This document shows positions 15,705 to 45,200 of a DNA stretch of 64,000 nucleotides, piece by piece. A program made the position numbers and the translations under genes. Below the pieces are notes generated by a model. It did no database searches, was not told the DNA's origin, and saw only the letters and a list, made by a program, of their open reading frames with translations. Source of the stretch: Patescibacteria group bacterium (GTDB taxonomy: Bacteria > Patescibacteriota > Patescibacteriia > JAHJFT01); NCBI GenBank assembly GCA_028710985.1, contig JAQTTB010000001.1:295397-359396 (forward strand), given 5' to 3'. Every line of letters begins with the position of its first letter. The stretch's first letter is position 1.

Positions 15705-16145
15705 CAATAGAACATCAGAGCAAAAGAACAATGGAACAAAAATATGGCGGATAAGAATGCCTACAGAGAAACTTTAAAGCAAAAGATGGACGAATATGTC
15801 CATCTTGTTTATAAAGTCACTAGAAATTTTCCGGCTGAAGAAAGATTCGGTTCAGCGTCGCAGTTGCGTCGGTCGGCTTTATCGGTAATTTTGAACTATA
15901 TTGAGGGATTCGCTCGCATAAGATTAAATGTAAAATTAAATTTTCTTGAAATCGCTTATGGCTCACTCAAAGAATCAAAATATTTGATATATTTCTCAAT
16001 GAAGGAAGGGTATATATTCAAAGAAGATTACCAGACCCTAATCGGACTTGCCGACAATATCGGGGCCATGCTCTGGTCTGAAATAGCGCAAGGCAGTAAA
16101 AAGCGAGACAAAAATTGACTTGTTCTTTGTTCTGTTGTTCTATTG
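15705..16145 (+). mobile_element. IVS-like cassette A: four-helix-bundle protein gene enclosed by imperfect low-complexity inverted repeats (left CAATAGAACATCAGAGCAAAAGAACAATGGAACAA, right CTTGTTCTTTGTTCTGTTGTTCTATTG)
   Basis: Arms at 15705-15739 and 16119-16145 are reverse-complementary (ttgttc/gaacaa motifs). They abut the start and stop codons of the enclosed ORF. Confidence 0.6.
15744..16118 (+). CDS. four-helix-bundle protein (23S rRNA intervening-sequence protein family, TIGR02436-like)
   Basis: 124 aa. Family hallmarks: ...LVYKVTRNFPAEERFGSASQLRRSALSVILNYIEGFAR...IAYGSLKESKYLIYFSMKEGYI. Three paralogs elsewhere in the window share the SQ(L/M)RR(A/S)AxSIxxNIAEG core. Confidence 0.85.
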   Translation: MADKNAYRETLKQKMDEYVHLVYKVTRNFPAEERFGSASQLRRSALSVILNYIEGFARIRLNVKLNFLEIAYGSLKESKYLIYFSMKEGYIFKEDYQTLIGLADNIGAMLWSEIAQGSKKRDKN

Positions 16146-18283: not shown

Positions 18284-19207
18284 ATGACTAAAGAAGAAAA
18301 AATTTTTGGTTTCTTGATTGTTTTTTGTATTACCCTGTTATTCACCGGGTGTATTCAGGCTATGTCCTCCACAAACTACATCATCAACTGGGATTCCTTA
18401 AACATTGGCGGCACGGACTTCAGTTCTTCAACCAACTACTTCATGAGTGACACCCTTGGCGAGATGTCAACCGGCCGCAGTTCAAGTACCAACTACTGGA
18501 TTTACGCCGGTTATCGTCAAGGCGTTACGGACATCCGATTTATCAGCTTTGACATTGGCGCCCAGGCAAACGCTTCGAAAATTGATTATTCGGCTTTCAG
18601 CAATGCGGGTAAGCAAGTGACGGTTTCGAGTGCGGTTGGCTATTCGGTGGGGGATTATATCGTGGCCGTGGAAAATGCCGGAGCAAGCCAGATGATTGCC
18701 ATCGGTAAAATTTCCAGCATTCTGGGAAACAGCCTCACGGTTGATAAGTGGGACGGCGATAATGCGGCCATGAGCGCGGTTCCAGCAGGAGGCAACGATT
18801 GGGTGTATGAATTATCCGGGAATACCGTAGATCTCGGGACACTGCTCACTGCCACGGTGGGTGTCGGCGTGAGCTTCAACGAAGTTAGTACCAACGCGGA
18901 CAATGGGTACACGGTTTCGGTAAAAGATGACGGAAATTTGCGGGACGGATTAAAAGACATTGACGACGTGATTGACGGCGCAGTCACGGCCGGCATTGAA
19001 GAATATGGCATTGAAACAGTTGGGACAAACGCGTCCGGCACCAATGATTTCGCTTTAGAATCTGCATTGGGCCAGTCGATACAAGTATCGACCGCTCCCT
19101 GGAACAGAGACCGCATCGGTGTAATTTATAAAGCCGGAATAAATTATGCGACGCAGGGCGGATCATATTCACACATTGTTTCGTATTATGTGACAGCAAA
19201 TTTTTAG
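18284..19207 (+). CDS. secreted/lipoprotein-like protein of unknown function (paralog 1; C-terminal motif SYSHIVSYYVTANF)
   Basis: 307 aa. N-terminal signal with a lipobox-like LFTGC. Repeated S(S)TNY motifs. Gly/Thr/Ser-rich beta-type composition. Shares its C-terminal motif with the next gene. Confidence 0.5.
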   Translation: MTKEEKIFGFLIVFCITLLFTGCIQAMSSTNYIINWDSLNIGGTDFSSSTNYFMSDTLGEMSTGRSSSTNYWIYAGYRQGVTDIRFISFDIGAQANASKIDYSAFSNAGKQVTVSSAVGYSVGDYIVAVENAGASQMIAIGKISSILGNSLTVDKWDGDNAAMSAVPAGGNDWVYELSGNTVDLGTLLTATVGVGVSFNEVSTNADNGYTVSVKDDGNLRDGLKDIDDVIDGAVTAGIEEYGIETVGTNASGTNDFALESALGQSIQVSTAPWNRDRIGVIYKAGINYATQGGSYSHIVSYYVTANF

Positions 19208-19485: not shown

Positions 19486-20532
19486 ATGAACAACTTAATT
19501 AAATTCCTGGTGTTCGTCATGGTATTCACCATGAGTCTTGGATTGTTTACGCCGGTTTACGCGGCCAATGTGGCGTTAAATCTCGGCGTGGATAGCAAGG
19601 TTGATATCTTTGACAGCACATACCCTATTGAAAACCAGTCGTCTGCCGAATTAGCGCTTTCAACGGCCGCGGATCTTTATTTTCAGTACGTAGCGGCAGG
19701 CAACTTTGCAGTAGGTCAGACGATTAGCATCGTGGCAACTACGCCATTGGTTATCGCGTCTTGCGTCGCACCAACAACCGATGCTGACCAGGACGGAACT
19801 CCGGATGGCACCGGTGCAGTTTCCGGAGACAACTATACCTACACCTTCTATGCCCCCACTACTCAAGCCGCCGCTTCAATCACCCTGTGCATCAATGTCG
19901 ATAACAGTATCGCAACTGCTGGCAATTATTCGTTCATCATGGCTGACGACCTCGGTGATTTCGGCGGAGCATTCCTGTACATCGGTACACCTGGGGGAGC
20001 GGCCAACGATGTTTATGTAACCGCGACAGTTACGAGCCAGGAACTTGAGTTCTGGATCCGGAATGCGGCGGATACAGCGGACACCAACGCTTGCGCTCTG
20101 GGAACGCTTAATACCACGTCGGTATCAACGTGCAACTATGCACTAAAGGTTCGCACCACGGCCACAATTGGATATACCATTTCCTGGACCTCGGACGGCG
20201 AACTTGACCGAAGTGGTACTGCGACCATTGATGCAATCGCCATGAACACGGCGGTTGCGGTCGGTGTTGAAGGTTATGGCGTAACGTTCACCCCGGGCGC
20301 TAACACCGACGGCGGTACTTGTACGGCGCAAAATATCTGGACAGCTGCCTACGATGACCCGGTTTCCACCACGGCGCAGAGTCTGGTGGTCTGCAACAAG
20401 GCCAACTTGCCAGCCGCAACCGGCGCAACGACATATATTCACAACATGGATCACCAGGCGGCAATTGATCCGGCTACTCCAGCGGGTAGTTATGATCAGA
20501 TTGTTACCTATTACGTGACCGCGCAATTCTAG
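19486..20532 (+). CDS. secreted protein of unknown function (paralog 2; C-terminal motif SYDQIVTYYVTAQF)
   Basis: 348 aa. Signal peptide MNNLIKFLVFVMVFTMSLGLFTPVYA. RBS GGAAGGAG 8 nt upstream. Thr/Ala/Gly-rich. The C-terminal 14 residues are nearly identical to the previous protein. Confidence 0.5.
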   Translation: MNNLIKFLVFVMVFTMSLGLFTPVYAANVALNLGVDSKVDIFDSTYPIENQSSAELALSTAADLYFQYVAAGNFAVGQTISIVATTPLVIASCVAPTTDADQDGTPDGTGAVSGDNYTYTFYAPTTQAAASITLCINVDNSIATAGNYSFIMADDLGDFGGAFLYIGTPGGAANDVYVTATVTSQELEFWIRNAADTADTNACALGTLNTTSVSTCNYALKVRTTATIGYTISWTSDGELDRSGTATIDAIAMNTAVAVGVEGYGVTFTPGANTDGGTCTAQNIWTAAYDDPVSTTAQSLVVCNKANLPAATGATTYIHNMDHQAAIDPATPAGSYDQIVTYYVTAQF

Positions 20533-20612: not shown

Positions 20613-21569
20613 ATGAAGAAAATGTTTATTATGGGGTGTATTGCCTTGCTCATGGCCATGACTCTCGCGTCCGGGGCGCAGGCAATCGGCATCTTGCCGT
20701 TCATTGTGGAGGATGTGAACATCGCACCCGGCGAAATGGCCACTCGGACTTTCACTGTATACAACAATACCGAGAGCGAGCAGACGTATTATTTCGTGAC
20801 GCGAAATTTTACCACCCGGGGTGAGGAGGGAGAGGTCGTGATTACCGAAGAAAAATTCGGTCTTGCCACTTGGATTGAGTTTCCCTTCACTTCGATAACC
20901 ATTCCATCCAGCGAAAACCGGGAGATTGAATTTACCATCATAATTCCGCCGAATGCCGACGCCGGTGGCCATTTCGCCGCAGTGTTTGCTTCCACCAATC
21001 CGCCGGATGTGGAACAAGGAGTTGGCCTCTCTGCCAATGTCGGTACTCTGGTGTTCGTGCGCGTGTCCGGCGACATCATTGATGACGTGCGTTTGTTGAG
21101 TTTCCATACCAAGGGGGACCAGGCGCTGTTTAGTCACCTGCCGGTTAATTTTGAATACCGCATAGAAAATCGCGGAACGGTTCATGCCAAGCCAACCGGA
21201 AGAATTATGATGAGCGGCTGGTTGGGTAAAACCGACATTGACGCCAATCCCAAGGAAAATCGCATTCTGCCGTCATCCATCCGTCGCATTGAAGCGACCT
21301 GGGTAAAAGATTCAGGAGCAATCCGATCCGGAGGCTTTCTGACTGAACTCAAAAACGAATGGAACAATTTCGCCATTGGAAAATATACAGCCGCGCTAGA
21401 TTTGTCTTATGGCGTCGAAGGAAAAAATTTGACTACCGAGACGGCTTTCTGGGTATTTCCATGGCATGTTTGCTTAGCGGCTTTGCTAATTCTGATCGGG
21501 ACAATTGTTGCCATCATTCTCTATAACAAGATGGTTATCGCAACCGCCCGCAAAAGCGGCAAACTCTAG
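20613..21569 (+). CDS. cell-surface protein with signal peptide, beta-sandwich domains and C-terminal TM anchor (DUF916/DUF3324-like architecture)
   Basis: 318 aa. Signal peptide ...ASGAQA. Central beta-rich domains (TFTVYNNTESEQTYYFVTRNF...GGHFAAVFAST...). C-terminal hydrophobic helix FWVFPWHVCLAALLILIGTIVAIILY followed by a basic tail NKMVIATARKSGKL. Confidence 0.45.
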   Translation: MKKMFIMGCIALLMAMTLASGAQAIGILPFIVEDVNIAPGEMATRTFTVYNNTESEQTYYFVTRNFTTRGEEGEVVITEEKFGLATWIEFPFTSITIPSSENREIEFTIIIPPNADAGGHFAAVFASTNPPDVEQGVGLSANVGTLVFVRVSGDIIDDVRLLSFHTKGDQALFSHLPVNFEYRIENRGTVHAKPTGRIMMSGWLGKTDIDANPKENRILPSSIRRIEATWVKDSGAIRSGGFLTELKNEWNNFAIGKYTAALDLSYGVEGKNLTTETAFWVFPWHVCLAALLILIGTIVAIILYNKMVIATARKSGKL

Positions 21570-21582
21570 TTTGACATCGAGT

Positions 21583-23898
21583 ATGGGAAAATGCATTTAT
21601 AAAATAATTTTCATCGCGGTTTTGGTAGGAACCATTCTAGCAAACTCTTTTACATTTGCTGCGGATATGACGCACGTCTCGGTGTCCTTGTCTGCCCAGA
21701 TGATTGGCGAAGCGGCCAATACCACGATTCGTTTTCGTACGCCAACCGGCGTGGACAGTTCAACCGATACGATTGTCATTGCCTGGCCGGCGGAATTTAA
21801 TGTCGCGGGTATTGTTCTTACGGATATGGATTTATCACATGGCGCGGTCTCGGGCTATGAAACCGATCTTACCCTGGCGGCCGTTGCCGGCGCCGGCATC
21901 TGGGGCGCTTCGTGGGTCGGGCATACTCTGACCTTGGCTGCGCCGACCGACGCTGCGGCCGGCGAAATCGGAGTCAACGATTACGTGGTGCTCGAGGTCG
22001 GTACGCACGCATCATTCGGCGGTGCCGGTGCCAACCAGGTGGTGAATGCGGCGACTGCCGGAAGTTATAATTACACCATTAGCGGCACGTTTGGCGATAC
22101 TAAAAATCCGGCTGTCTACGTTGCGGATAACAACACGGTTGCCATCACCGGCACTGTGCTTGGCGATATTGAAACAATTTGCGACAACGGACTTGACGAT
22201 GACGGTGACACATTAATTGACTGCTATGATCCGGACTGCGCCGGCAATTCTTATTGCGTGCCGCCCGGCGGCGGCGGTGATACCACCCCGCCGGCTATCA
22301 CCAATGTAAACTGCATGGATATTACCCCAACCTCGTTTTCCGTGGTCTGGGAAACCAACGAAGCCGCAACCTCCTGCTCCGAATACGGGGAAACTTCGTT
22401 TTACGAACTCGGCATGCTCTGCAATATGTCGCTCGTCTGGTCGCATTCCGTGCCGTTTGTTGGTTTGGCCCAGCTTACGAATTACCATTTCCGTGTGATT
22501 TCCCGCGACGAATATTTCAACACCTCAATTAGCGATGATTATTCCTGCGCCACTTTGGGCGACACCGAAGCGCCGGTTATCAGCAATATCCGCGTGATAA
22601 ATATCACGGCCACGAGCGCGGAAGTTGTTTGGGACACCAATGAGCCAGCCACGTCGCAGGTTGATTACGGTCTGACCGATGTCTATGGTACGGAAACACC
22701 GACAGATTTCGCCTATGTTACCGAGCATCACGTTATTCTCACGGGTTTGACCCCGAACACGGATTATCATTTTCTGGTTCGCAGTTATGATATCGCGGGG
22801 AATGGCGCGGTTTCCGGTGACAATATTTTTCACACGCTCACGAGCGTGGATTCGCCGATTATTACCGATGTGCAGATTGTTGACATCACGGAAACTTCGG
22901 CACGGGTTATTTGGCAGACCAACGAGATTGCCGATTCCGAAGTTGATTACGGCACGACCCTAAGCTACGAGGTCGGCACCGTGGTTGACGGCGCGTTTGT
23001 GGTTGATCATTCAATTGACCTGAACAACCTTTTACCGAACACGCTTTATCATATCCGCGTACACAGCACCGATCCGGAATCCAATGAATCGGTTACTGGC
23101 GACTACACCTTTACCACTCTGCCGGATACCACCCCGCCGGCTAATGTGACAGACTTCACGGCAACAGTAACCGGACCGCTGGAGATTACTCTGACCTGGA
23201 TCAATCCGACCGACGCGGACTTCGCCGGCGTGCGCATTTGCCGCAGTACGGTCGCGTACCCGACCGATCCGTTGACCTGCGATATTATTTTTGAAGGCGC
23301 GGGCACGAGTTTTATTGACACCGACGTGGAGGCAGGCGTGACGTACTATTACACCAACTTTGCTTTTGACACATCCAATAATTTCGCTTCCGGCGCAATC
23401 GCTTCGGCCCGGGTTCCGTTGCCGGTTACTGTGACTTTTCTTGGGCATCCGGAAAAGCGCTGGCCGCGGACCGGCAACTGGAGCACGACTATTGAAATGG
23501 AGCTTCGCGAACCCGGTTCCCTGGCCTCGCTTGAAACAATTTTATTTGACACCAATTCGCTTGGCTATGGCACCTCTACCATGAATCTGTTGGAATACGG
23601 AGAAGCGTACGACTTTACGGCAAAGGGTTTTTCTCACCTGCGGAAAAAAATGAGTTCCGCGACCATCACCGAAACCAGCACTATGCTGGACTTCACTTTT
23701 GGAAACATCTTTAACCTCTATGCCGGTGACTGCCATCCGTCAAAAGACAATTTTGTAAATTCGTTAGACATTTCCACTTTAATTAATGACCTAATGGCTT
23801 CGGAACGGGTTAGCGATCTGAATAATGATAGCCAGGTGAATTCGCTTGATATTACTATTCAGATGGCCAATCTTATGAAGGACCTGGGGGATGATTAG
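21583..23898 (+). CDS. secreted protein with four FN3-like repeats and C-terminal tandem dockerin
   Basis: Start chosen at MGKCIYKIIF (signal peptide); the longer ORF start overlaps the upstream gene. Four repeats of the pattern TTPPAITNV.C.DITPTSFSVVWETNEAATS..EYG / ISNIRVINITATSAEVVWDTNEPATSQVDYG / ITDVQIVDITETSARVIWQTNEIADSEVDYG / NVTDFTATVTGPLEITLTWINPTD. The C-terminus has two dockerin calcium-binding segments (SKDNFVNSLDISTLINDL and DLNNDSQVNSLDITIQMANLM; D1-N3-D5-N9-D12 spacing). Confidence 0.6.
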   Translation: MGKCIYKIIFIAVLVGTILANSFTFAADMTHVSVSLSAQMIGEAANTTIRFRTPTGVDSSTDTIVIAWPAEFNVAGIVLTDMDLSHGAVSGYETDLTLAAVAGAGIWGASWVGHTLTLAAPTDAAAGEIGVNDYVVLEVGTHASFGGAGANQVVNAATAGSYNYTISGTFGDTKNPAVYVADNNTVAITGTVLGDIETICDNGLDDDGDTLIDCYDPDCAGNSYCVPPGGGGDTTPPAITNVNCMDITPTSFSVVWETNEAATSCSEYGETSFYELGMLCNMSLVWSHSVPFVGLAQLTNYHFRVISRDEYFNTSISDDYSCATLGDTEAPVISNIRVINITATSAEVVWDTNEPATSQVDYGLTDVYGTETPTDFAYVTEHHVILTGLTPNTDYHFLVRSYDIAGNGAVSGDNIFHTLTSVDSPIITDVQIVDITETSARVIWQTNEIADSEVDYGTTLSYEVGTVVDGAFVVDHSIDLNNLLPNTLYHIRVHSTDPESNESVTGDYTFTTLPDTTPPANVTDFTATVTGPLEITLTWINPTDADFAGVRICRSTVAYPTDPLTCDIIFEGAGTSFIDTDVEAGVTYYYTNFAFDTSNNFASGAIASARVPLPVTVTFLGHPEKRWPRTGNWSTTIEMELREPGSLASLETILFDTNSLGYGTSTMNLLEYGEAYDFTAKGFSHLRKKMSSATITETSTMLDFTFGNIFNLYAGDCHPSKDNFVNSLDISTLINDLMASERVSDLNNDSQVNSLDITIQMANLMKDLGDD

Positions 23899-23940
23899 GG
23901 GGCGGAGGCTTGGAGAGGAAGGAATTACTGCTTGGGGGCG

Positions 23941-24368
23941 AAGAATCTAGTATCTAGTATCTAGAATCTAGAAGATCAAAAACGAAAATACTTATATATG
24001 CAGACGAAATCATTTAGAGATTTGATTGTTTGGCAGAAGTCGCGCGATTTGGGGGTTGAGATATACAAGTTGACAAAGAGTATGCCCAAAGAGGAACTCT
24101 ACGGCATGGTGAGTCAGATGAGAAGGGCGGCGATCTCCATATCGTCCAATATCGCCGAAGGATATAATCGCGCGCATCCGATAGAGAAGAGGCAGTTTAT
24201 GCGCATCGCCTATGGTTCAGGATCGGAATTAGAAAGCCAGATCGAAGTCGCAAAGATTATATATCCAAAGTTAAGTTATAAGTTATCAGAAAGTTTATTA
24301 CTCGAAGTACTAAAGATCCTAAATAAATTTATCAACCGATAAAAGACTAGATTCTAGATTCTAGATTC
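23941..24368 (+). mobile_element. IVS-like cassette B: four-helix-bundle gene enclosed by TCTAGA-type inverted repeats (left AAGAATCTAGTATCTAGTATCTAGAATCTAGAAG, right AAAAGACTAGATTCTAGATTCTAGATTC)
   Basis: Arms at 23941-23974 and 24341-24368 are reverse-complementary. The right arm starts at the stop codon. Same arm family as 14671-14760 and 27095-27290. Confidence 0.65.
23998..24342 (+). CDS. four-helix-bundle protein (23S rRNA intervening-sequence protein family)
   Basis: 114 aa. MQTKSFRDLIVWQKSRDLGVEIYKLTKSMPKEELYGMVSQMRRAAISISSNIAEGYNR...IAYGSGSELESQIEVAK: the canonical family sequence pattern. Confidence 0.85.
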   Translation: MQTKSFRDLIVWQKSRDLGVEIYKLTKSMPKEELYGMVSQMRRAAISISSNIAEGYNRAHPIEKRQFMRIAYGSGSELESQIEVAKIIYPKLSYKLSESLLLEVLKILNKFINR

Positions 24369-24373
24369 ACCGT

Positions 24374-27112
24374 ATGAAATACGCACGCACAACAATAATA
24401 CTGCTTGCCATAATGGCAGGGCTCGCAATTGCCACGGCCGTCCACGCCGCGCGATTTGAATTATCGCCTGCGAGTGCGGCCCTGAATCAGGGTTGCGACT
24501 CGGTGGTGAACATCGTGCTTAGTACCGAAGGAAGCGAATCCGATGCCGCTAATGTCATTATCCAATACAATCCGGCTGAAGTGGAAATTACGGACACAAA
24601 CCCGGCCATTCCGGGAATCCAGATTGGCCAGGGCAATGCCTATGATATATACGCCGATAATATTGTCGATCCGGCAATCGGCCAGATTCGGTTGACCGGA
24701 TTTTCCATCGGCCATGCCTACAACAGCGGCTTATTGTACGGAGTCTTTGGTTCGATTCCATTCAAGAGCCGGCCCGGGATTGCGGCAGCCACTTTCACAA
24801 TTTTTTATGAGGCTGGGAGCACGCTTGATTCAAATATTGCTGAATACATCACAAGCGACGATCTTCTCACCGGCGTGCGAAACGGATCTTATACATTCGC
24901 GGTTGGCGAGTGCGTGAGCGATGTAACACCGCCCTGGGTTACGAATCCTCAGCCCGCGCCTGGTTCAACCGGCGTGCCGCTTTCAAGCAACACTACTTTT
25001 CACATTCTGGATAACATGTCCGGAGTTGACCTCTCGTCGCTCCGCATCAATGTCCAGGGAATTGAATATAATTATGACGGCGTCAACCGTTTCAGCTATT
25101 CTGGCACGGCGCTCGATTACGCAATCACGATTGATCCGATTGCCGATTTTCCGGACGGCGTTATGGTGCGCGTCGAAGTAAACGGCCGCGATCTTGACGG
25201 CAACACCATGTCACCTTATCGCTGGTATTTTAACGAACCGCCGATTCCGCCGCCGGTCCCGCCAACCTGTACCGAGCTCGGTTGCCCGGAACCTGATGAA
25301 TGTGCTCCGCCGGAAGAACTTCCGGCGTGTGAAGAACCCGAGGTTTTGCCCATCCCCGAACCCACTGTGCCGCCCGGAGAGCAGATAAGTATTGATGCCA
25401 TTGAATTCTTGGCTGCGAACCGCACGGTTCGTTTGTATCCCGACGGAGTCAATGCCGTGCGCGTACTTGTGGGTACTTCGTACAGCGTGCAAATCAGCCA
25501 TGAAAATCTCGCCAAAGAAGTGGGCTCAATCTGGTGGTATTCGGGTGCGTCAACATATCAACTCGCGCAAAGTGCGGCGGGTGATTTCTGGACCGACATC
25601 GGCGCCTATGCTTCAATCACCGCGGTTCCTTCACACATCATTATAAATTACGCAGATGGCACCATTGATGTGCGCGACTTTACGGTGCGGACCGTGCCGC
25701 GAGGCAATGTGTACGAACAAATCGGCGAAAATGAATCCATGGTTTCCGGCGCCAGGGTGACGATTTATCAAGCCGGCACCACGCCTGGAATCTGGAATGC
25801 CGGAACCTACAATCAGATAAATCCGGTATGGACTTCAAATGACGGCCAGTTCGGCTTTTATGTGCCGCAGGGCTATTACTACATTGAGGTGCAAAAGCCG
25901 GGATATGATCTGGCGCGGTCGCTCTCGTTCTATGCGCGCAGTTCCATTGTTAATAATCCCATGCTTCTTACGAAAATTCCCGGACCGGTTACTCCGATTG
26001 ACGCGATTACACAGACCGCAGTACTGGTCGGCGAAACCGTGGCCGATATGGCCGCGCGGACACAGTCCGCGATTGTCGCCGCCATTCCGGCAACTCAGGA
26101 ACAGATTGATTCAGCCGTCGGTATTATCGCGCCCGCCGCCATCGGCCTCGCATTCCTGAATCTCGGTACCGCGATTTCATTCGCTAATCTGATTCCGTTC
26201 TTGTGGGGGCTCTTTACCCAACCGCTGCTCTTGCTCGGCCGGGGCAAAAGAAAAAGATGGGGAGTGGTTTACAATTCACTCACCAAGATACCGATTGATC
26301 TCGCTATCGTCCGCCTGATTGAAGCCCGGACCGGAAAAATAATTCGCACTCGCATCACCGACCGTGAGGGCCGATATTTCTTCATGGCCAAACTGGGAAT
26401 TTACCGCATTGAAGTAAAAAAGCCGGGTTTTCTGTTTCCCACGATAAATTTACGCGATGCCAAGGAGGATTTTCAGTATCTGGATGTTTATCACGGTGAG
26501 ATTATTCAGGTTCGCGAAGAAAGTCGCCAAATTACGGCTAATATTCCGCTTGATCCGATCGCCGGCGCCGAGAAATCAAAATGGCTTATTGTTCGTTCAT
26601 ACTTAAAGAAGGCGCAACAGTACGCGGCTTCACTTTCGGTTATGGTGGCCATCGGACTCTTGGTCGTCAACCCCTCATGGTTTATGCTCGGGTATCTTAT
26701 TCTGCAAATCGCTCTTCTTCTGCTTTTCCGTCGCCTGGCTCAGCCTGCCAAGCCAAAGGGCTGGGGCATAGTTTACGACAAAAAAACCCGCCGGCCGATT
26801 GCCAATGCCATTGTGCGTATCTTTGACCTTGAATTCAGCCGTCTTTTGGAAACCCAGGTCACGGACGGACAGGGCAAGTATTCATTCCTGGTCGGCAGTA
26901 ATCGGTATTTCACCACCTACGAAAAGCCCGGTTTCGTGGTAAAGAAATTAGCGCCAATTGATTATTCAAAAATGAAAGAAAGAACCATGGTGGCTTATGA
27001 TGTGGGGCTGGAGCGGGCCAAGGACATTGCGGCATCAGAGCAGAAAAATGCGGCCAGTGGGTCAGTGCAAGTCGGAGGCGGAGAAGAGTGGAAGAACGAG
27101 AATAGAATCTAG
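24374..27112 (+). CDS. membrane-anchored surface protein: N-terminal cohesin-like domain, Ig-like domain, Pro-rich linker, three CarbopepD_reg-like domains, internal TM helices
   Basis: 912 aa. Signal peptide. Residues about 26-160 (FELSPASAALNQGCDSVVNIVLSTEG...ANVIIQYNPAEVEITD...) resemble the cohesin beta-sandwich pattern. Linker reads EPPIPPPVPPTCTELGCPEPDECAPPEELPACEEPEVLPIPEP. Three G.Y...V.KPG(Y/F) modules (YYYIEVQKPGYDL; GIYRIEVKKPGFLF; YFTTYEKPGFVV) are preceded by TD.(D/E)G.(Y/F) motifs. Two or three hydrophobic helices lie around residues 560-600 and 740-790. Confidence 0.5.
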   Translation: MKYARTTIILLAIMAGLAIATAVHAARFELSPASAALNQGCDSVVNIVLSTEGSESDAANVIIQYNPAEVEITDTNPAIPGIQIGQGNAYDIYADNIVDPAIGQIRLTGFSIGHAYNSGLLYGVFGSIPFKSRPGIAAATFTIFYEAGSTLDSNIAEYITSDDLLTGVRNGSYTFAVGECVSDVTPPWVTNPQPAPGSTGVPLSSNTTFHILDNMSGVDLSSLRINVQGIEYNYDGVNRFSYSGTALDYAITIDPIADFPDGVMVRVEVNGRDLDGNTMSPYRWYFNEPPIPPPVPPTCTELGCPEPDECAPPEELPACEEPEVLPIPEPTVPPGEQISIDAIEFLAANRTVRLYPDGVNAVRVLVGTSYSVQISHENLAKEVGSIWWYSGASTYQLAQSAAGDFWTDIGAYASITAVPSHIIINYADGTIDVRDFTVRTVPRGNVYEQIGENESMVSGARVTIYQAGTTPGIWNAGTYNQINPVWTSNDGQFGFYVPQGYYYIEVQKPGYDLARSLSFYARSSIVNNPMLLTKIPGPVTPIDAITQTAVLVGETVADMAARTQSAIVAAIPATQEQIDSAVGIIAPAAIGLAFLNLGTAISFANLIPFLWGLFTQPLLLLGRGKRKRWGVVYNSLTKIPIDLAIVRLIEARTGKIIRTRITDREGRYFFMAKLGIYRIEVKKPGFLFPTINLRDAKEDFQYLDVYHGEIIQVREESRQITANIPLDPIAGAEKSKWLIVRSYLKKAQQYAASLSVMVAIGLLVVNPSWFMLGYLILQIALLLLFRRLAQPAKPKGWGIVYDKKTRRPIANAIVRIFDLEFSRLLETQVTDGQGKYSFLVGSNRYFTTYEKPGFVVKKLAPIDYSKMKERTMVAYDVGLERAKDIAASEQKNAASGSVQVGGGEEWKNENRI

Positions 27113-27339: not shown

Positions 27340-30300
27340 ATGAACTCAATCGGAGGAAGACAATTCAAGCGGACTTTAAAGAAAACCATTGTTTTGCAAA
27401 TGGCAGTTTTGATGTTGCTTGTCTGGTTCGGTGCGTTCGTGACTCCGGAAAAAGCCCATGCTGCGATTAATAAATACATCAACTATCAGGGAAAACTGCT
27501 TGATTCTTCCAAAATCCCGGTGGCGGACGGAACCTATGGCATTGAATTCAAGATTTACGATGCCGTCACTGCCGGCAGTGAACTCTGGTCAGATTCCTTT
27601 GATGTTGCTGTTGATGACGGTCTATTCAGCATTTTGCTGGGTTCAAGCGGCACGCTTGACTTGAATTTTGAAGATGAAGCCGGCTACTGGCTGGGTGTTA
27701 ATGTTGAGGCTGATGGCGAAATGACGCCGCGCAAAGAAATTGGCGCCGCGGCTTATGCATTCAACTCGGATTTATTGGACGGATTGCATGCCACGACTAC
27801 CGGCGCAATTTCTTCGGCCGTGGTCGCGCTGACTGCCAACGGCAATCTCACCATTACCGGCGATCCCCAAGGCGGCGCGGTTACACAGGGTTCCCTATAT
27901 ATTAATCCAGCCGCTCCGGCAGCCGATGAAACGCTTTTGGGTATCGCAAATAACGGCTCGCAGCGGCTGCTTTTGGATGCGGAAGGCGATCTGACGGTCG
28001 CCGGATATGTCTCAACCACACAATTATTTATTGATAGTATTGATGTTCAAACCAGCGCTTCCCGGACAACCTCAGGCGCGTATATCATTGGTGTTGCCGA
28101 CAACTTCTCGTGGTCGGCCTCAACCAATGTCCAGTTCGTGCTTGAGGATTTGGATCTCGCAATCACTAACGCCTCATCTTCAGCCAACCTTTGGACCGAT
28201 GCAGGTACATATATATATAACACCCCGGCCGGTGACATTAACCGATTCTATGACAACGGCGATATTAAGTTTGACCAAGTGAGTGATACATTATTTATTG
28301 ATCAAAGCGCGCACAGTATTGGTATCTTTACAACTTCTCCTACGGCCGCGGCACTTGAGGTTGATGCAAATTCACTTGGAACAACTACGGCAAACAAAAT
28401 AATTTTAGCAAACACAACCGCCGCCGGCGCTGGTGCACAACAGGTTTCGCCTGCATTAAATTTTAGAAGTCAAGGTTGGTCACTTGCAGAAAGTGCATCT
28501 CAAGAAGTGGATTGGCAAGTGTATGTCCTACCTCATCAATACGCTGGTCGACAGGCGACCTCAGATTTATATTTTCAGTATAAATTGGGCGGTGAATCAA
28601 GTTATAGAACTGGTATTATTTTTACCGCTCCTTTTGATAGCGGATATGCATCTTTAGCGGCATATAATGGCACTTTTTATAATAGCGTAAGTGTAAGCGC
28701 AGTTCTAAGTGTTAGCACCAATGCTTATCTGGCATATACATCTACTGCCTACAGGGTCGGCATCGGCACCAACAGCCCCGGCTACAAGCTGCATGTTGTT
28801 GGCACGAGCGGTTTTGATGGCAGCCTTGCTGTTTCATCAACCAATCTCATTTTTGACGCCGCCGGTACAGCCTTCGCAAGTTCAACCGACCGAACTCACT
28901 CCGGCGCTTACTACTTGGGTGTTGCCGACAATTTCTCCTGGTCGGCTTCAACCAATGTCCAGTTCGTGCTGGAAGATTTGGACCTTGCGATCACCAACGC
29001 CTCATCATCGGCCAATCTTTGGAAAGCAAACGCTTCATATATATATCCGGCCTCAACCACGGCCAATGTTTTCCCTTCATCAAACAATGCGCAAAGCCTA
29101 GGAGCGTTTGGTAGTGCCTGGAAAGATATTTATGCTTCGGGCACGTCATATTTAACCAACGTAACGGCGGCAAATTATGTTAATGTTTCCGACGCGACAG
29201 TCGGCTATAAAATCGGCGGGAACATAATTTTAAGAAATCCCTATACCCGCAATATACTTCTTGGTCAAAGCGCGGGAGCGGCTCTTAATTCAGATGGCAC
29301 GGACAATATGTTTCTCGGTTATTTGGCCGGAGCTGCAGCCACTTCTTCAGATTACAATACTTTCATCGGCTCTTACGCCGGCTATGCCAACACTGCCGGT
29401 ACTGCCAATGCCTTCATTGGCTATGTCGCCGGCTATGCCAACACCACCGGCGCTAATAATATTTTCATCGGCTCTTACGCCGGCTATACCAACACCATCG
29501 GCGCAAATAACTCCTTCATCGGTTATGCCGCTGGCCGCTACAGCACTACCGGCTCCTACAACTCCTTTATTGGTAATGCCGCCGGCTATTCAAACACCAC
29601 CGGTGCTGCCAATGCTTTCATCGGCTATGGTGCTGGCTACTATAACACCACCGGCGCGAATAACACCGCGATCGGTTCTTATGTTTTATACGCCAACACC
29701 ACAGGCGCGAATAATAGCGCGATCGGTTTTTACGCCTTAAGCGCCAACACCACTGGCGCGAATAACAGCGTGATTGGTTATTTTGCTTCATTTTACAACT
29801 CATCGGCCACGAGCACAGTGGCAATCGGTTATCAGGCGGCTCGAGGAACCGCGGCATACAGCAACCAAAACGGCGTGTACATTGGTTACAATGCCGGGTA
29901 TGCGGCTCAAACAGGGTCGGATAACAATATAATGATTGGTTATCAAGCCGGAGACAGTATAACAACGGGATCTGGCAATTTGCTTATTGGCTATGATGTT
30001 GATAATGCCACAAGCACGGCTTCAACCAATTACATAAATATCGGAAATACCATCCAGGGCTGGATCGGTGGAAAAATCTATCCATACAATCATGGAACAC
30101 AGGATTTGGGCGCATACGGTTATGCCTGGAAAGACATCTGGGCTTCAGGCACGGCCTTCCTCGCGAACGCGAATCTCTCCGGCAATGCTACTGTCCTGGG
30201 CTATGTCTCAACCACCCAAGTTTATATAGATAGTATAGATATAGAAGGCCAGGGTACGGGCAATACCACGGCCGGCGCCTACAAAATCGGCACTTATGAC

Positions 30301-33300
30301 GAATTTGACTGGTCCGCAAGCACCAATGTGCAGGATGTGCTTGATGACCTGGACGCCACTCTGACCACGGTTTCTACCTCGGCCATGCTTTGGACCGACG
30401 CGGGTACATATATATATAATACCCCGGCCGGAGACATTAACCGGTTTTATGATACCGGCAGTGTCAACTTTGATGCCACCAACACCACGCTTTATGTTGA
30501 CGCCATGAACAATCGCGTTGGTGTCGGCACGAATAACGCTTTAAGCGTTTTCCATATTCTTGGCAGCTACCCGCAGTTATTAATTAATGACAGTTCGGTT
30601 CCGAGCTTCCTGTCTTTGAGGGGTGATGCCAATATCTTCTTCAACAATGCCTCCAACTACAGGATCGCTAGCCAGGCTTATGCAAACCGCGGCACGGCCA
30701 CGGGCGATACAGTGAGATTTACCATTCAGGGCTCCAATGGATATGTGGGTATTGCCACTTCAACTCCGCAAGTGATGCTCCATGTGTACGACGGGAGTTT
30801 CCGTCAGCAAGATACAACCGGCGGCAAGACCGGGCAATTGACCATCTCCACCCTCTCTTCTGGTACGCTAATTCAGGAAACCAATAACGGTCGTATTACG
30901 TATAAGGCATATGCTCATACTTGGCAGACTCATGCGGGAACAGAAATTTTCCGAACCAGTGACGGGTTGACCGCAGTTATATTTAATGGAAATATTTTTT
31001 CTTACGGTAATCTTTACACCTCATCTTCAAAATTATTTGTTGGAAGTGACACAACTCTCGCCGAATCAACCGACCGCCTTGATTCCGGCGCCTACAATGT
31101 GGGCGTGGCCGACAACTTCTCGTGGTCGGCTTCAACCAATGTCCAGTTTGTGCTGGAAGATTTGGACCTCGCCATCACCAACGCCTCATCATCGGCCAAT
31201 ATCTGGAAAGCAAACGCTTCATATATATATCCGGCCTCAACCACGGCCAATGTTTTCCCCTCATCAAACAATGCGCAAAGCCTGGGTGCGTTTGGCAGCG
31301 CCTGGAAAGATATTTACGCTTCAGGCACAGCGTATTTAACCAACGTAACGGCGGCAAATTATGTTAATGTTTCCGACGCGACCGTCGGATATAAAATCGG
31401 CGGGAACATTATTTTAAGAAATCCCTATACTCACAATACACTTATCGGGCAAAACGCAGGGGCAAACATCAATTCAGATGGCACGGATAATACTTTTATT
31501 GGTTATTTCGCTGGGTACACAGCCACTTCAACAGATTATAACGTTTTTATCGGTCCTTACGCCGGCCAGAACAATGCTGCCGGCGCTAATAATTCCTTTA
31601 TCGGCTATGCCGCTGGCAAAGACAACACTACTGGCAGTGGCAACTCCTTCATCGGTTATGTCGCCGGCTATGCCAATACCATTGGCAATTATAACTCCTC
31701 CATCGGCTATGCCGCCGGCTATGCCAACACCACCGGCTCTTACAACTCCTTTATCGGCAATGCCGCCGGCCAAACCAACACCACCGGCGCGAATAACACC
31801 GGGGTTGGTTATTCCGCTTTATACTCCAACACCACCGGCGTGAATAACACCGCGGTTGGTTATTCCGCTCTATTCTATAACTCATCGGCCACAAGCACGG
31901 TGACAATTGGTTATCAGGCGGCGCGAGGAACCGCGGCATATAGCAACCAAAATGGCGTGTATATTGGTTACAGAGCGGGGTATGTTGTTCAAACAGGGTC
32001 GGATAACAATATAATGATCGGTTTTCAAGCCGGAAACAGTATCACAACCGGCGCTAATAATATATTGATTGGTTATGATGTTGATACACCGCTCGCAACC
32101 ACATCTAACTACTTAAACATTGGCAATCGGATTTATGGAAGTCTAACGGATGGAATTTTAAATATCCAGCCAAACGGTGATTCCAACAATTATTCCCGAT
32201 TTGCGACGGTTGATGCACAACCCATACTATATTTCGTTTCATCAACCATGACTAACTATTCCGGCTTCCGCTTGAATTCCTCTACCGGCGAAATGGAGTA
32301 TCGCGATGAGGATTCAGCGACGTATACACCATTTGACACAATCGCGGCCGGAGCGGGTATCTGGTCAACCGGCGCTTCATATATATATCCGGCCTCCACC
32401 ACGGCCAATGCTTTCCCCTCATCAAACAATGCGCAAAGCCTGGGTGCGTTTAGCAGCGCCTGGAAAGATTTTTATGCCTCCGGAACTTCATATCTCACCG
32501 GCGTATTGAATTCTGACGGAGCTCTTGGCGCGCCAAGCTACTCTTTCGCCGCAGATTCTGATACAGGTATGTTTTGGGCGGGTACGGGCAATGTTCGTTT
32601 CTCTTCAAACGGAGCGAGCATAGTGACCATGGGCAATTCTGAAGTGGATGTCGGCGGTTCAATTCTGCCAACCGCCAATAATACCCGAGATTTAGGCGCT
32701 TTCTCTTATGCCTGGCGCAATATCTATGCCTCCGGCACGGCATTCTTAACCGGTATTCAAAATTCAGTCGGAGCCGTCGGCACGCCAAGCTACAGTTTTG
32801 CCGGAGATACAAACACAGGAATCTACAGTCCATTATCCGATGCGGTTGCGATCGCTGTAAATGGTGCTCAACGATTCCAGGTAACCGCAACTGGCGCACA
32901 AGTAACCGGAACTGTCTATTCGGACGCAAATAATTCACGGGACATCGGCTACTTTGGAAATGCCTGGAATGATATCTTCGCGTCCGGTACAGCCTTCCTC
33001 GCGGATGCAAATCTCTCCGGCAATGCCACGGTCCTGGGTTATGTCTCTACCACGCAGTTATTTATTGATAGTATTGATGTTCAAACCAGCGCTTCCCGGA
33101 CAACCTCGGGCGCTTATGTCATTGGTGTGGCCGACAATTTCTCCTGGTCCGCCTCAACCAATGTCCAGTTCGTGCTGGAAGATTTGGACCTTGCGATCAC
33201 CAACGCCTCCTCATCCGCCAATATCTGGAAACTCGGGGCTTCATATATATATCCGGCATCCACCACGGCCGATATCCTGGCCGGCGCCGCAACTCCGGAC

Positions 33301-44970: not shown

Positions 44971-45054
44971 GTGGGTTTCCTCTCAATATTGTAAGGAGCT
45001 TGTTTGTTCAGTCATGAAAGACGGAATTGTCCTTCAATTACATTTTAACATTAA

Positions 45055-45083
45055 ATTATAGCAGATATTAAGAGTTTTGTCAA
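45055..45083 (-). promoter_or_regulatory. consensus sigma70 promoter TTGACA-17-TATAAT for the 43912-44970 gene
   Basis: Read on the minus strand: CCTTGACAAAACTCTTAATATCTGCTATAATTT. Perfect -35 and -10 hexamers with a 17 nt spacer, about 85 nt upstream of the start codon. Confidence 0.6.
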
Positions 45084-45154
45084 GGGTAATAAGGTGATTT
45101 TTTATCTAAAATAAGCAAAATAATATAATATTAGCCAAAATTTGATAAGAAAAA

Positions 45155-45195
45155 AGGGAGCGCTTTGTGGAGGCGGCTCCCAGAAACCTAGGAAG
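45155..45195. repeat. conserved 3'-flank motif (copy 2): GGGAGCGCTTTGTGGAGGCGGCTCCCAGAAACC
   Basis: See 43865-43905. It sits just past the stop of the 45201-46427 gene. Confidence 0.5.
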
Positions 45196-45200
45196 GTGTG

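What the first reader, a model, noticed from the sequence alone, without database searches (positions are those of the whole stretch)
21583..27112. Adjacent dockerin-bearing and cohesin-like proteins: a possible cohesin-dockerin surface assembly in a small-genome bacterium
The 797 aa protein ends in two canonical dockerin calcium-binding repeats (…DNFVNSLDISTLINDL… and …DLNNDSQVNSLDITIQMANLM…). The next large gene (after a four-helix-bundle cassette) encodes a membrane-anchored protein. Its first about 135 mature residues resemble a cohesin beta-sandwich (…VVNIVLSTEG…ANVIIQYNPAEVEITD…). Three carboxypeptidase-regulatory-like domains and TM helices follow. A cohesin on a membrane anchor next to a dockerin on an FN3 stalk would give a modular surface complex. 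This is upstream of a giant adhesin, and may represent attachment machinery.
Basis: partly seen in the sequence, partly recalled or inferred. Interest (0 to 1): 0.6.

Follow-up and report, generated by a model that had tools for sequence, protein, structure and literature searches.

The report
Dockerin-cohesin joint anchoring a surface stalk
Two neighbouring genes of a tiny-genome (CPR/Patescibacteria) bacterium encode a secreted stalk protein and a membrane anchor that very probably snap together through a cellulosome-type X-dockerin/cohesin pair. The stalk's head resembles a pilus subunit, so this joint may be how these bacteria fix a surface filament to the cell.

Summary
The 771-aa protein (ATG 21583; the 797-aa figure counts from TTG 21505) ends in a dockerin, which passes Pfam's cut-off narrowly. 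The first ~165 mature residues of the 912-aa membrane protein get no Pfam Cohesin hit. However, they fold as a cohesin (pLDDT 94; all top 50 PDB matches are cohesins) and are about 40% identical to domains that do score as Cohesin.

New findings:
- The dockerin follows an Ig-like X module. The pair matches type II X-dockerins by fold and by sequence profile.
- An X-dockerin gene sits beside a cohesin gene in 16 of 17 related loci with enough flanking DNA, whatever the carrier protein.
- At least 19 relatives are single fused proteins, stalk plus anchor, that lack exactly the X-dockerin, the cohesin and the adjacent Ig-like (Big_5) domain. Two that I checked sit in the same chromosomal slot.
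- The stalk's head resembles the N-terminal domain plus donor strand of Pam-type CPR pilins and lacks the acceptor domain. Pilin-like and chaperone-like genes lie just upstream.

Best reading: a two-piece surface stalk joined without a covalent bond, probably the base and anchor of a Pam-type pilus. This is a new variant of a known kind.

The parts
18284..19207 (+). PamT-like tip-pilin candidate (307 aa)
   Evidence: NCBIfam CPR_pilus_PamT E 2.9e-11 (43 bits, far below the 240-bit cut-off) and CPR_Pam_pilin_C E 3.2e-11 over residues 178-307. Orthologues sit at the same position in L002-L005, L007 and L019.
19486..20532 (+). Pam-type pilin candidate (348 aa): N-terminal domain, linker strand NDVYVTATV, C-terminal acceptor domain
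   Evidence: NCBIfam CPR_Pam_pilin_C E 1.9e-10, 41 bits (cut-off 55), model positions 2-148 of 148 over residues 199-348. Similar to pilins in L007 (E 3e-17) and L021 (E 3e-28).
20613..21569 (+). Chaperone-like protein (318 aa) with signal peptide and C-terminal transmembrane helix; positional counterpart of PamC/PamD
   Evidence: Conserved next to the pilin genes in L002-L005, L007 (two copies), L009, L019 and L021. Only weak sub-threshold WxLIP_PGBD/fn3_5 hits, in 7 of 8 orthologues. The fold was not tested. The architecture matches the description of PamC/D in bioRxiv 10.64898/2026.03.03.709456.
21583..23898 (+). Secreted stalk protein, 771 aa: signal peptide, pilin-like head, Cys repeat, 4 FN3, X module, dockerin
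   Evidence: 100% identical to NCBI PHW53_01595.
21661..22167 (+). Head: pilin-like N-terminal domain plus linker (donor-type) strand, residues ~27-195; strand NTVAITGTVLG at 22132-22164
   Evidence: An HMM of this domain hits the N-terminal domain plus linker strand of 362-370-aa pilins in L002-L005 at E 1e-30 to 1e-50. The C-terminal halves of those pilins hit CPR_Pam_pilin_C. The pairwise alignment runs through the strand. No acceptor C-terminal domain follows.
22171..22257 (+). Acidic double-disulfide repeat (residues 197-225)
   Evidence: NCBIfam NF033662 E 1.5e-9, 37.4 bits (cut-off 41).
22279..23409 (+). Four tandem FN3 domains (residues ~233-609), the stalk
   Evidence: Pfam fn3 6e-19 and Pur_ac_phosph_N 1e-16, three stretches each. 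The fourth repeat is read directly from the sequence.
23410..23697 (+). X module: 7-stranded Ig-like domain (residues 610-705) immediately before the dockerin
   Evidence: AF2 model pLDDT 90.8 with strands 4-94. Foldseek top 10 are all type II X-dockerin chains aligned over ~165 columns. The profile hit to 4wi0_B at E 2e-5 spans X and the dockerin. X and the dockerin are conserved together as one unit in all carriers.
23725..23898 (+). Dockerin (residues 715-771): Ca-loop 1 at 23725-23769 (variant), Ca-loop 2 at 23815-23850 (canonical), each followed by a helix
   Evidence: Pfam PF00404 24.2 bits against 22.9. Helices at model residues 118-126 and 145-153. PDB profile hits to type II (E 2e-7) and type I (about 1e-3) dockerins.
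23998..24342 (+). Four-helix-bundle (23S rRNA IVP family) gene inserted between the two partner genes; probably not part of the system
   Evidence: PF05635 1e-31, TIGR02436 9e-31. Present, partly degraded, at the same place in L019. Absent in L003-L005, where the partner genes abut or overlap.
24374..27112 (+). Membrane anchor protein, 912 aa: signal peptide, cohesin, Big_5, Pro/Cys-rich linker, beta-sandwich domains, 3 hydrophobic membrane segments
24449..24940 (+). Cohesin domain (residues 26-189)
   Evidence: AF2 pLDDT 94.3. Foldseek PDB top 50 are all cohesins. About 40% identical to the P0039 domains and 39% to the P0066 domain, which score on PF00963. No direct Pfam hit.
24920..25231 (+). 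Big_5 Ig-like domain (residues 183-286), travels with the cohesin
   Evidence: Pfam PF13205 E 0.012 here, and annotated in many homologues. Missing together with the cohesin in the fused forms.
25238..25384 (+). Pro/Cys/Glu-rich linker (residues 289-337); the fusion point in single-chain relatives
   Evidence: Read from the sequence. Fused proteins begin to match the anchor at residues ~300-340.
25385..27109 (+). Anchor body: three CarboxypepD_reg-like domains (best stretch residues 798-859) and hydrophobic segments at residues 584-621 and 752-785 (26123-26236, 26627-26728)
   Evidence: Pfam PF13620 63.5 bits, 3 stretches, and SdrD_B 29.3 bits. Hydropathy scan. Topology was not predicted with a dedicated tool.
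27340..43770 (+). Giant 5476-aa repetitive surface protein; conserved downstream neighbour (context, function unknown)
   Evidence: ORF. No Pfam or NCBIfam family. Homologous giant genes follow the anchor gene in L003, L004, L007, L017, L018 and L019.

Best explanation
The locus encodes a two-piece cell-surface stalk held together by a type II-like X-dockerin/cohesin joint.

Shown:
- Both proteins start with Sec-type signal peptides.
- The 912-aa protein has a cohesin and a Big_5 Ig-like domain at its mature N-terminus, on a Pro-rich linker. Beta-sandwich (CarboxypepD_reg-like) domains and three hydrophobic membrane segments follow.
- The 771-aa protein has a pilin-like head, four FN3 domains and a C-terminal X module plus dockerin.

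Inferred, strongly:
- The X-dockerin binds the cohesin of the neighbouring gene's product, Ca2+-dependently and without a covalent bond. This tethers the FN3 stalk to the cytoplasmic membrane of a bacterium that has no outer membrane.
- The joint replaces a peptide bond. In many relatives the same stalk and the same anchor are one polypeptide that lacks exactly the X-dockerin, the cohesin and Big_5.

Inferred, moderately (about 0.45):
- The head is the N-terminal domain plus linker/donor strand of a Pam-type CPR pilin, without the acceptor C-terminal domain. It could therefore donate its strand to the last pilin of a donor-strand-exchange filament but accept none.
- That filament would be built from the PamT-like and pilin genes upstream with the membrane-anchored chaperone-like protein.
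- On this reading the 771-aa protein is the terminator/base subunit and the cohesin protein is its membrane anchor. It would be a functional analogue of PamR, with a dockerin-cohesin joint in place of PamR's own transmembrane helix.
For: 1. Dockerin: Pfam above cut-off. The XDoc AF2 model has pLDDT 90.8. Its ten best PDB matches are all type II X-dockerin chains over ~165 columns. The XDoc profile hits type II XDoc sequences at E 2e-7 to 1e-4.

2. Cohesin: model pLDDT 94.3. The top 50 PDB matches are all cohesins. There is transitive homology to PF00963-scoring domains.

3. Cognate pairing from gene context: an XDoc-ending gene lies next to the cohesin-starting gene in L002-L012, L014, L015, L019, L020 and L021. 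These include loci labelled Saccharibacteria and Gracilibacteria, and carriers of 187 to more than 3240 aa that share nothing but the XDoc. Only one dockerin and one cohesin of this type occur in the window.

4. Rosetta-stone fusion: at least 19 proteins of 1070-1330 aa match the 771-aa protein from about residue 10 to about 608, stopping just before X at residue 610. They then match the 912-aa protein from about residue 300/336 to 883, and have no XDoc, cohesin or Big_5. The two that I looked up lie in the same slot: polA, holA, rpsT, rmuC(-), the gene, then a giant gene.

5. Pilus link:
- The head HMM hits pilin N-terminal domain plus linker strand at E 1e-30 to 1e-50.
- Those pilins and the window's own carry CPR_Pam_pilin_C.
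- There is a graded series of XDoc carriers: strand+XDoc; pilin-like head+strand+XDoc; and the same with 1, 3 or 4 FN3 domains.
- L021 places an XDoc carrier and a cohesin anchor next to a pilin and a chaperone-like gene.
- The donor-strand and PamR model comes from bioRxiv 10.64898/2026.03.03.709456.
Against:
- The cohesin does not score on Pfam directly.
- Dockerin Ca-loop 1 is non-canonical.
- All Pam family hits are below NCBIfam's curated cut-offs.
- The fold of the chaperone-like protein was not tested.
- The head HMM does not detect the window's own 348-aa pilin head (phmmer E 0.7).
- Fused-form loci L017 and L018, and small-XDoc loci L014 and L015, have no pilin or chaperone genes nearby. 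The stalk/anchor unit therefore exists without an adjacent pilus operon.
- Only 64 kb of a 744-kb genome was seen, so other cohesins or dockerins may exist.
Confidence: 0.7

Rival explanations
1. A stand-alone surface fibril or adhesin. The X-dockerin/cohesin joint is real, but the stalk is not part of a pilus. The pilin-like head is simply a binding or display domain held about 15-20 nm from the membrane, perhaps contacting host cells or the neighbouring giant protein.
For: Fused orthologues in L017 and L018, and small XDoc/cohesin pairs in L014 and L015, occur without adjacent pilin or chaperone genes. In L017, L018 and the other loci with enough downstream sequence, the recurring neighbour is the giant protein rather than the pilins. 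In L018 the head is replaced by a PamT-N-terminus-like segment.
Against: The head keeps the pilin linker strand that serves as donor strand in Pam pili. The commonest carriers, about 205 aa, are little more than a signal peptide, one strand and the XDoc, which makes no sense as adhesins. Pilin and chaperone-like genes flank the pair in the window, L002-L005, L007, L019 and L021.
Confidence: 0.2
2. The dockerin's partner is not the neighbouring cohesin. The dockerin-like module binds a cohesin encoded elsewhere, or binds carbohydrate or Ca2+ only. The adjacency would then reflect co-regulation rather than contact.
For: No interface could be computed. Only 64 kb of the genome was examined. Cohesin-dockerin specificity is known to be variable (established knowledge of cellulosomes).
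Against: Adjacency is kept in 16 loci across very divergent lineages and carriers. The fused orthologues delete exactly XDoc plus cohesin/Big_5 and join the remaining halves. This is hard to explain unless these modules form the junction.
Confidence: 0.07
3. A miniature cellulosome: the cohesin protein is a scaffoldin that collects dockerin-bearing polysaccharide-degrading enzymes on the cell surface.
For: The domain families are those of cellulosomes. Dockerin proteins of Saccharibacteria have been discussed in terms of glycan targeting (PMC10633639).
Against: The dockerin carrier has no catalytic or carbohydrate-binding domain, only a pilin-like head and FN3. The anchor has a single cohesin. 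There is no other dockerin in the window. Among the sampled XDoc carriers, the forms recognised were pilin-like heads, FN3, Cys-rich repeats or nothing.
Confidence: 0.03

Closest known systems
Type II X-dockerin/cohesin anchoring of the Clostridium thermocellum cellulosome (CipA XDoc bound to SdbA, OlpB or Orf2p cohesins; PDB 2b59, 5g5d, 5k39, 5m0y)
   Same: An Ig-like X module fused to a C-terminal two-repeat dockerin, at the end of a long non-catalytic protein. The partner cohesin sits on a cell-surface anchoring protein, and the purpose is attachment to the cell rather than enzyme recruitment. The match holds by fold and by sequence profile spanning X and the dockerin.
   Different: The anchor is held by transmembrane segments rather than SLH domains. 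The cargo is a pilin-like head on FN3 domains rather than a multi-cohesin scaffoldin. There is one cohesin only. Ca-loop 1 carries a two-residue insertion with His/Ser. The organism is a CPR bacterium with no cellulolytic context. The cohesin matches type I structures slightly better than type II. Binding is untested.
PamR, the proposed terminator/anchor of the Pam pilus of Ca. Mycosynbacter amalyticus (bioRxiv 10.64898/2026.03.03.709456)
   Same: A donor-type strand at the N-terminal end, FN3 domains as spacer, tethering to the cytoplasmic membrane, and a gene inside a cluster with PamT-like, pilin and membrane-anchored chaperone-like genes.
   Different: PamR has two FN3 domains and its own C-terminal transmembrane helix, and only a bare N-terminal strand. 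Here there is a full pilin-like head plus strand and four FN3 domains. The membrane link is outsourced to a separate polytopic protein through XDoc-cohesin. The preprint mentions neither dockerin nor cohesin.
Non-cellulosomal cohesin and dockerin modules (Peer et al. 2009, FEMS Microbiol Lett, cited in PMC10066038; e.g. Archaeoglobus fulgidus cohesin 2xdh, Clostridium perfringens cohesin-like 2jh2)
   Same: Cohesin and dockerin folds in organisms that make no cellulosome. Both 2xdh and 2jh2 appear among the structural matches.
   Different: For most of those modules no partner or role is known. Here the partner is indicated by conserved adjacency and by fused orthologues, and a structural role can be proposed.
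Terminator/anchor subunits of other pili: PapH of chaperone-usher P pili and the basal pilins of sortase-assembled pili (my own knowledge, not tested here)
   Same: The logic is the same: a last subunit that can join the fibre but cannot be extended, and that fixes the fibre to the envelope.
   Different: These families are unrelated. Anchoring there uses the usher/outer membrane or covalent linkage to peptidoglycan, not a dockerin-cohesin pair.

Membership tests
Dockerin (Pfam PF00404) | Score at or above the Pfam gathering cut-off | tested here: met
   23.1 bits (whole protein) and 24.2 bits (C-terminal 156 aa) against a cut-off of 22.9; E 4e-5 to 9e-5. The margin is narrow.
Dockerin (Pfam PF00404) | Two tandem Ca-binding loop plus helix repeats (12-residue loop, D/N at positions 1, 3, 5, 9, 12) | tested here: inconclusive
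   Repeat 2 (DLNNDSQVNSLD) is fully canonical. Repeat 1 (GDCHPSKDNFVNSLD) is two residues longer, or reads H/S/D/N/D. It is conserved in 29 orthologues and is canonical in the distant relative L010. Both helices are present in the model. Ca binding cannot be tested here.
Type II X-dockerin (XDoc) dyad | Ig-like X module directly N-terminal to the dockerin, forming one structural unit | tested here: met
   AF2 pLDDT 90.8. Foldseek PDB ranks 1-10 are all type II XDoc chains, about 165 aligned columns, TM 0.57-0.68. Profile hits to 4wi0_B (E 2e-5) and 2b59_B (E 1e-4) span both modules. X and the dockerin co-occur in all 107 family members scanned.
Type II X-dockerin (XDoc) dyad | Tight binding to a cognate cohesin | not testable with these tools
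There is no multimer prediction and no experiment.
Cohesin (Pfam PF00963) | Score at or above the Pfam gathering cut-off | tested here: not met
   No Cohesin hit for the isolated domain at E<=10 or for the whole protein at E<=1. Homologous domains in P0039 (40% and 38% identical) and P0066 (39% identical) do pass, with 52.7 and 33.4 bits against 24.1, over the equivalent residues.
Cohesin (Pfam PF00963) | Nine-stranded beta-sandwich (jelly-roll) cohesin fold | tested here: met
   Model pLDDT 94.3, all-beta. The Foldseek PDB top 50 are all cohesins of types I, II and III, E 3e-8 to 9e-5, probability 1.00, TM by target up to 0.75.
Cellulosome | Dockerin-bearing carbohydrate-active enzymes assembled on a multi-cohesin scaffoldin | tested here: not met
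   The carrier has no catalytic domain or CBM. There is a single cohesin on the anchor, and one dockerin in 64 kb. Among the sampled XDoc carriers, the forms recognised were heads, FN3 or Cys-rich repeats.
Pam pilus system (NCBIfam NF058579 PamT, NF058581 Pam_pilin_C) | Pilin with a C-terminal truncated Ig-like acceptor domain scoring on the curated models | tested here: inconclusive
   The 307-aa and 348-aa proteins hit NF058581 at E 3e-11 and 2e-10 with full model coverage, but at 41-43.5 bits against a cut-off of 55. PamT scores 43 bits against 240. Related loci behave the same way.
Pam pilus system (NCBIfam NF058579 PamT, NF058581 Pam_pilin_C) | Membrane-anchored PapD/FimC-like chaperone (PamC/PamD) | not tested
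   The 318-aa protein has the right position, size and C-terminal transmembrane helix. Only weak WxLIP_PGBD/fn3_5 hits were found, and there is no PDB sequence match.
PamR (pilus terminator/anchor) | N-terminal donor strand, two FN3 domains, own C-terminal transmembrane helix | tested here: not met
   The 771-aa protein has a single hydrophobic stretch, its signal peptide, so no C-terminal transmembrane helix. It has four FN3 domains and a full pilin-like head. It may work like PamR but is not filed as PamR.
CarboxypepD_reg-like domain (PF13620) | Score above the Pfam cut-off | tested here: met
   63.5 bits against 32.3, three stretches.

The most novel reading that the evidence does not exclude
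X-dockerin/cohesin may be the general membrane-anchoring joint of Pam-type donor-strand-exchange pili across the Candidate Phyla Radiation.

The XDoc carriers form a graded series. It runs from about 205-aa proteins that are little more than a signal peptide, one donor-type strand and XDoc, through 'pilin head + strand + XDoc', to the 771-aa stalked form here. All would be terminator pilins that cap the filament base and plug it into a cohesin on a polytopic membrane protein. A cellulosome module would then have been recruited, or would have originated, as a load-bearing pilus anchor in bacteria that have neither an outer-membrane usher nor sortase.
Probability: 0.4. Interest if true: 0.82.

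Novelty: new variant of a known kind. Interest (0 to 1): 0.68.

Why it matters
Cohesin and dockerin modules are widespread outside cellulosomes, but almost none has a known partner or job. Here the partner is identified by two independent genomic arguments, and a concrete structural role can be proposed.

CPR bacteria live attached to host cells. How their surface filaments are fixed to an envelope with no outer membrane is an open question. The only current model (PamR) rests on predictions in one organism.

A non-covalent, Ca-dependent and probably mechanically strong joint at the filament base would be directly testable with two small recombinant domains. If confirmed, it would explain:
- why hundreds of small 'hypothetical' XDoc proteins exist in CPR genomes;
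- possibly why a dockerin protein is essential in a cultivated Saccharibacterium (PMC10633639), although I did not show that protein to be related.

It would also supply new orthogonal cohesin-dockerin pairs for protein engineering.

Tried and rejected
- Direct Pfam scan of the cohesin-like domain at E<=10 gave no Cohesin hit.
- A 35-sequence profile of that domain against PDB sequences found nothing significant. The best hits were HIV gp120 at E 0.19, which is noise, and cohesin 1g1k at only E 0.52.
- The search for related loci with the diverse alignment A1 failed for lack of a conserved stretch. It was repeated with the closer set A2.
No interface evidence exists.
- The giant 5476-aa protein and the three unknown minus-strand genes gave no Pfam or NCBIfam family.
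- PDB sequence searches with the 348-aa pilin and the 318-aa chaperone-like protein found nothing.
- The strand motif [VI]x[VI]x[AG]x[VIL] occurs in 41 of 76 small XDoc leaders, against about 3 in shuffles. I do not count this as independent evidence. The proteins are homologues, so enrichment over shuffles is expected. The fixed position seven residues before X could also mean an extra strand of the X module.
- The cellulosome reading was rejected: no enzymes and a single cohesin.
L019 has it too.
- Literature searches for dockerin or cohesin in CPR/Patescibacteria or with pili found no description of this pairing.


Full report
**Setting.** The window is a chromosomal stretch of a Patescibacteria (CPR) genome near the replication origin. 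It carries dnaA, dnaN, a class A PBP, polA, holA and rmuC. The 771-aa protein is 100% identical to NCBI 'hypothetical protein PHW53_01595 [Patescibacteria group bacterium]' on a 744,538-bp contig, so 'small-genome bacterium' is right.

The genes of interest form one plus-strand run:

| Coordinates | Product |
|---|---|
| 18284-19207 | 307 aa |
| 19486-20532 | 348 aa |
| 20613-21569 | 318 aa |
| 21583-23898 | 771 aa |
| 23998-24342 | 114 aa |
| 24374-27112 | 912 aa |
| 27340-43770 | 5476 aa |

**The observation: the dockerin.**
- Pfam finds fn3/Pur_ac_phosph_N repeats and, at the C-terminus, Dockerin_1. It scores 23.1 bits on the whole protein and 24.2 bits on the last 156 residues, against a cut-off of 22.9. 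That is a pass, but a narrow one.
- The second Ca loop (DLNNDSQVNSLD) is textbook.
- The first (GDCHPSKDNFVNSLD) carries two extra residues and has His/Ser where Asp/Asn are usual.
- This variant is conserved in 29 orthologues. A distant relative, L010 (record labelled Gracilibacteria), has the canonical GDVNGDDIVNALD at the aligned position.

**The observation: the cohesin.**
- The first ~165 mature residues of the 912-aa protein get no Pfam Cohesin hit even at E<=10. A 35-sequence profile finds nothing significant among PDB sequences.
- This domain is the most widely shared part of the protein family, at 36-64% identity.
- Two homologues are 38-40% identical to it over this domain. They score 52.7 and 33.4 bits on PF00963 exactly over the equivalent residues.
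- An AlphaFold2 model built on the 35-sequence alignment has pLDDT 94.3. All of its 50 best PDB matches are cohesins of types I, II and III, including the non-cellulosomal A. fulgidus cohesin. E-values go down to 3e-8 and TM by target up to 0.75.

- The dockerin is preceded by a conserved ~95-residue module. The last 160 residues behave as one unit in every carrier.
- A model of residues 610-771 (pLDDT 90.8) shows a seven-stranded sandwich followed by two helices.
- Its ten best PDB matches are all type II X-dockerin chains from cohesin complexes of C. thermocellum and relatives (2b59_B, 4wi0_B, 5g5d_B, 5m0y_B, 5k39_B and others). They align over ~165 columns.
- A sequence profile of the unit also hits those chains (E 2e-7 to 1e-4, spanning X and the dockerin), ahead of type I dockerins at about 1e-3.
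- Type II X-dockerins are the modules that fasten a cellulosome scaffoldin to cell-surface anchoring proteins (established knowledge).
- On the other protein, a Big_5 Ig-like domain and a Pro/Cys-rich linker follow the cohesin.

**Do the two modules belong together? Gene neighbourhood.**
- This dockerin type and this cohesin type each occur once in the window.
- A scan of species-representative genomes with the cohesin domain gave 13 loci. In 11 of the 12 with upstream DNA, the neighbouring gene ends in this X-dockerin.
- This holds in loci labelled Saccharibacteria and Gracilibacteria, where the carrier is 255 aa, 291 aa, 463 aa or more than 3240 aa and shares nothing else with the 771-aa protein.
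- Look-ups starting from X-dockerin proteins gave the same picture from the other side in L014, L015, L019, L020 and L021.
- In total, 16 loci show adjacency. One is an exception (L013) and one contig is too short to judge (L001).

**Do the two modules belong together? Fused orthologues.**
- At least 19 homologues of 1070-1330 aa match the 771-aa protein from about residue 10 to about 608. They stop just before the X module at residue 610.
- They then continue with a match to the 912-aa protein from about residue 300-340 to 883, after the cohesin and Big_5 and within or just after the Pro-rich linker. They contain no X-dockerin, cohesin or Big_5.
- The two fused genes that I looked up sit in the same chromosomal slot as the split pair: polA, holA, rpsT, rmuC on the opposite strand, the gene, then a giant gene (compare for a split relative).
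- This is a classical Rosetta-stone pattern. It locates the junction precisely at the XDoc/cohesin modules.
- I could not obtain a predicted interface.

**What the assembly is for: the upstream genes.**
- The upstream genes point to the Pam pilus, a donor-strand-exchange filament recently described in a CPR bacterium (bioRxiv 10.64898/2026.03.03.709456).
- The 307-aa and 348-aa proteins hit NCBIfam CPR_Pam_pilin_C at E ~1e-10 with full model coverage. The 307-aa protein also hits PamT. All these hits are below the curated cut-offs.
- The 318-aa protein has the position and the C-terminal transmembrane helix of the membrane-anchored chaperones PamC/D. Only weak WxLIP_PGBD-type hits support any fold assignment.

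**What the assembly is for: the head of the stalk protein.**
- An HMM of its first ~200 residues hits the N-terminal domain of 362-370-aa pilins in L002-L005 at E 1e-30 to 1e-50. Their C-terminal halves hit Pam_pilin_C.
- The alignment runs through the strand that links the two pilin domains: AVSIIAEDQVTVTATVL in the pilin against AVYVADNNTVAITGTVL here.
- In Pam pili that linker is the strand donated to the previous subunit's C-terminal domain.
- The 771-aa protein has the head and the strand but no acceptor domain. It could therefore join a filament but not be extended.

**What the assembly is for: other X-dockerin carriers.**
- An exhaustive profile search finds 189 cluster representatives at E<=1e-30 and 587 at E<=1e-10. 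Among the 150 best-scoring proteins listed, the X-dockerin is always at the extreme C-terminus.
- Most are about 205 aa: a signal peptide, a short strand and XDoc.
- Others are 'pilin-like head + strand + XDoc' (about 330 aa), the same with one FN3 (450 aa), or with three FN3 (649 aa). The window's protein, with four FN3, ends the series.
- In L021 such a carrier and its cohesin anchor lie beside a pil348-like pilin (E 3e-28) and a chaperone-like gene (E 2e-21).

**Limits of the pilus reading.**
- All Pam assignments are sub-threshold.
- The head does not detectably match the window's own pilin head.
- Fused-form loci and several small-XDoc loci have no pilin genes nearby.
- The strand motif in small carriers could simply be an extra X-module strand.
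- I therefore put about 0.8 on the joint itself and about 0.45 on the terminator/anchor role. The overall figure for the statement as worded is 0.7.

**Comparison and novelty.**
- The modules are members of the dockerin/X-dockerin and cohesin folds. The system works like type II cellulosome anchoring and, functionally, like PamR.
- It is not a cellulosome: there are no enzymes and only one cohesin.
- It is not PamR: it has no transmembrane helix of its own.
- The literature held here does not describe a dockerin-cohesin pair in CPR, or any link to pili. The Pam preprint mentions neither module.
- One cultivated Saccharibacterium has an essential dockerin protein of unknown role (PMC10633639).
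- I rate this a new variant of a known kind, of above-average interest because it is cheap to test.

Noticed in passing
window 15744-16118 and 23998-24342; L019 12329-12730: There are two copies of a 23S-rRNA-IVP/four-helix-bundle gene (PF05635, TIGR02436). One is wedged between the dockerin gene and the cohesin gene. A shortened copy (89 + 41 aa) sits at the same place in the 65%-identical relative L019, but none in L003-L005, where the partner genes abut. It looks like a small mobile or selfish cassette tolerated inside an operon.
   Followed up: partly
window 27340-43770: The giant 5476-aa ORF has long internal repeats and no Pfam or NCBIfam family. A homologous giant gene follows the anchor gene in L003, L004, L007, L017, L018 and L019, and precedes the pair in L021, in both split and fused forms. 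It may be the 'tail fibre-like' neighbour mentioned in the Pam preprint. Its relation to the stalk is unknown.
   Followed up: partly
P0189-P0397; e.g. L014 10001-10564, L015 10001-10621: Hundreds of small (~195-255 aa) CPR proteins consist of a signal peptide, one short beta-strand-like segment (often DxVxVSAxV) and the X-dockerin. In L014 and L015 the gene is immediately followed by a cohesin-fronted membrane protein, among housekeeping genes. What a cargo-less X-dockerin does is unexplained.
   Followed up: partly
P0308, P0330, P0351, P0383, P0201, P0203; L018 9989-13219; window 18284-18530: A ~60-residue N-terminal segment with three 'SSxNY/F' repeats, as at the start of the 307-aa PamT-like protein, also heads some X-dockerin carriers and one fused stalk-anchor protein. 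It is often followed by Cys-rich CGNGxxExGExCDDGNxxxGDGCS repeats. The module is shuffled among tip-pilin-like and anchor-type proteins.
   Followed up: no
P0039 (1255 aa): One homologue carries two copies of this cohesin type (residues ~28-188 and ~481-640), each followed by a Big_5 domain. It would be a two-socket anchor, closer to a scaffoldin.
   Followed up: no
window 43912-47708 (minus strand): Three consecutive genes (352, 408 and 384 aa) have no Pfam or NCBIfam family. They lie in the only part of the window with raised G+C (0.56-0.575 against about 0.49).
   Followed up: no
L004 (OZ246416.1) and L007 (OZ246408.1): These public records are titled 'uncultured Gammaproteobacteria bacterium', yet they are 0.89-1.0-Mb chromosomes carrying the same CPR-type gene cluster. 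They look taxonomically mislabelled. P0012 and P0094 are similarly labelled Bathyarchaeia.
   Followed up: no
window 20613-21569 and orthologues in L002-L004, L007, L019: The chaperone-like proteins repeatedly give weak, sub-threshold hits to WxLIP_PGBD (PF06030), the N-terminal domain of WxL-interacting proteins of Firmicutes (7 of 8 sequences). My own recollection, not checked here, is that those proteins also end in a transmembrane helix. This may be a distant relationship between the two surface-protein systems.
   Followed up: partly
window 24374 vs 24413: The database copy of the anchor protein (P0001, 899 aa) starts 13 codons downstream of the 912-aa ORF start. The longer form gives a more typical signal peptide (MKYARTTIILL...AVHA|ARF).
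   Followed up: no
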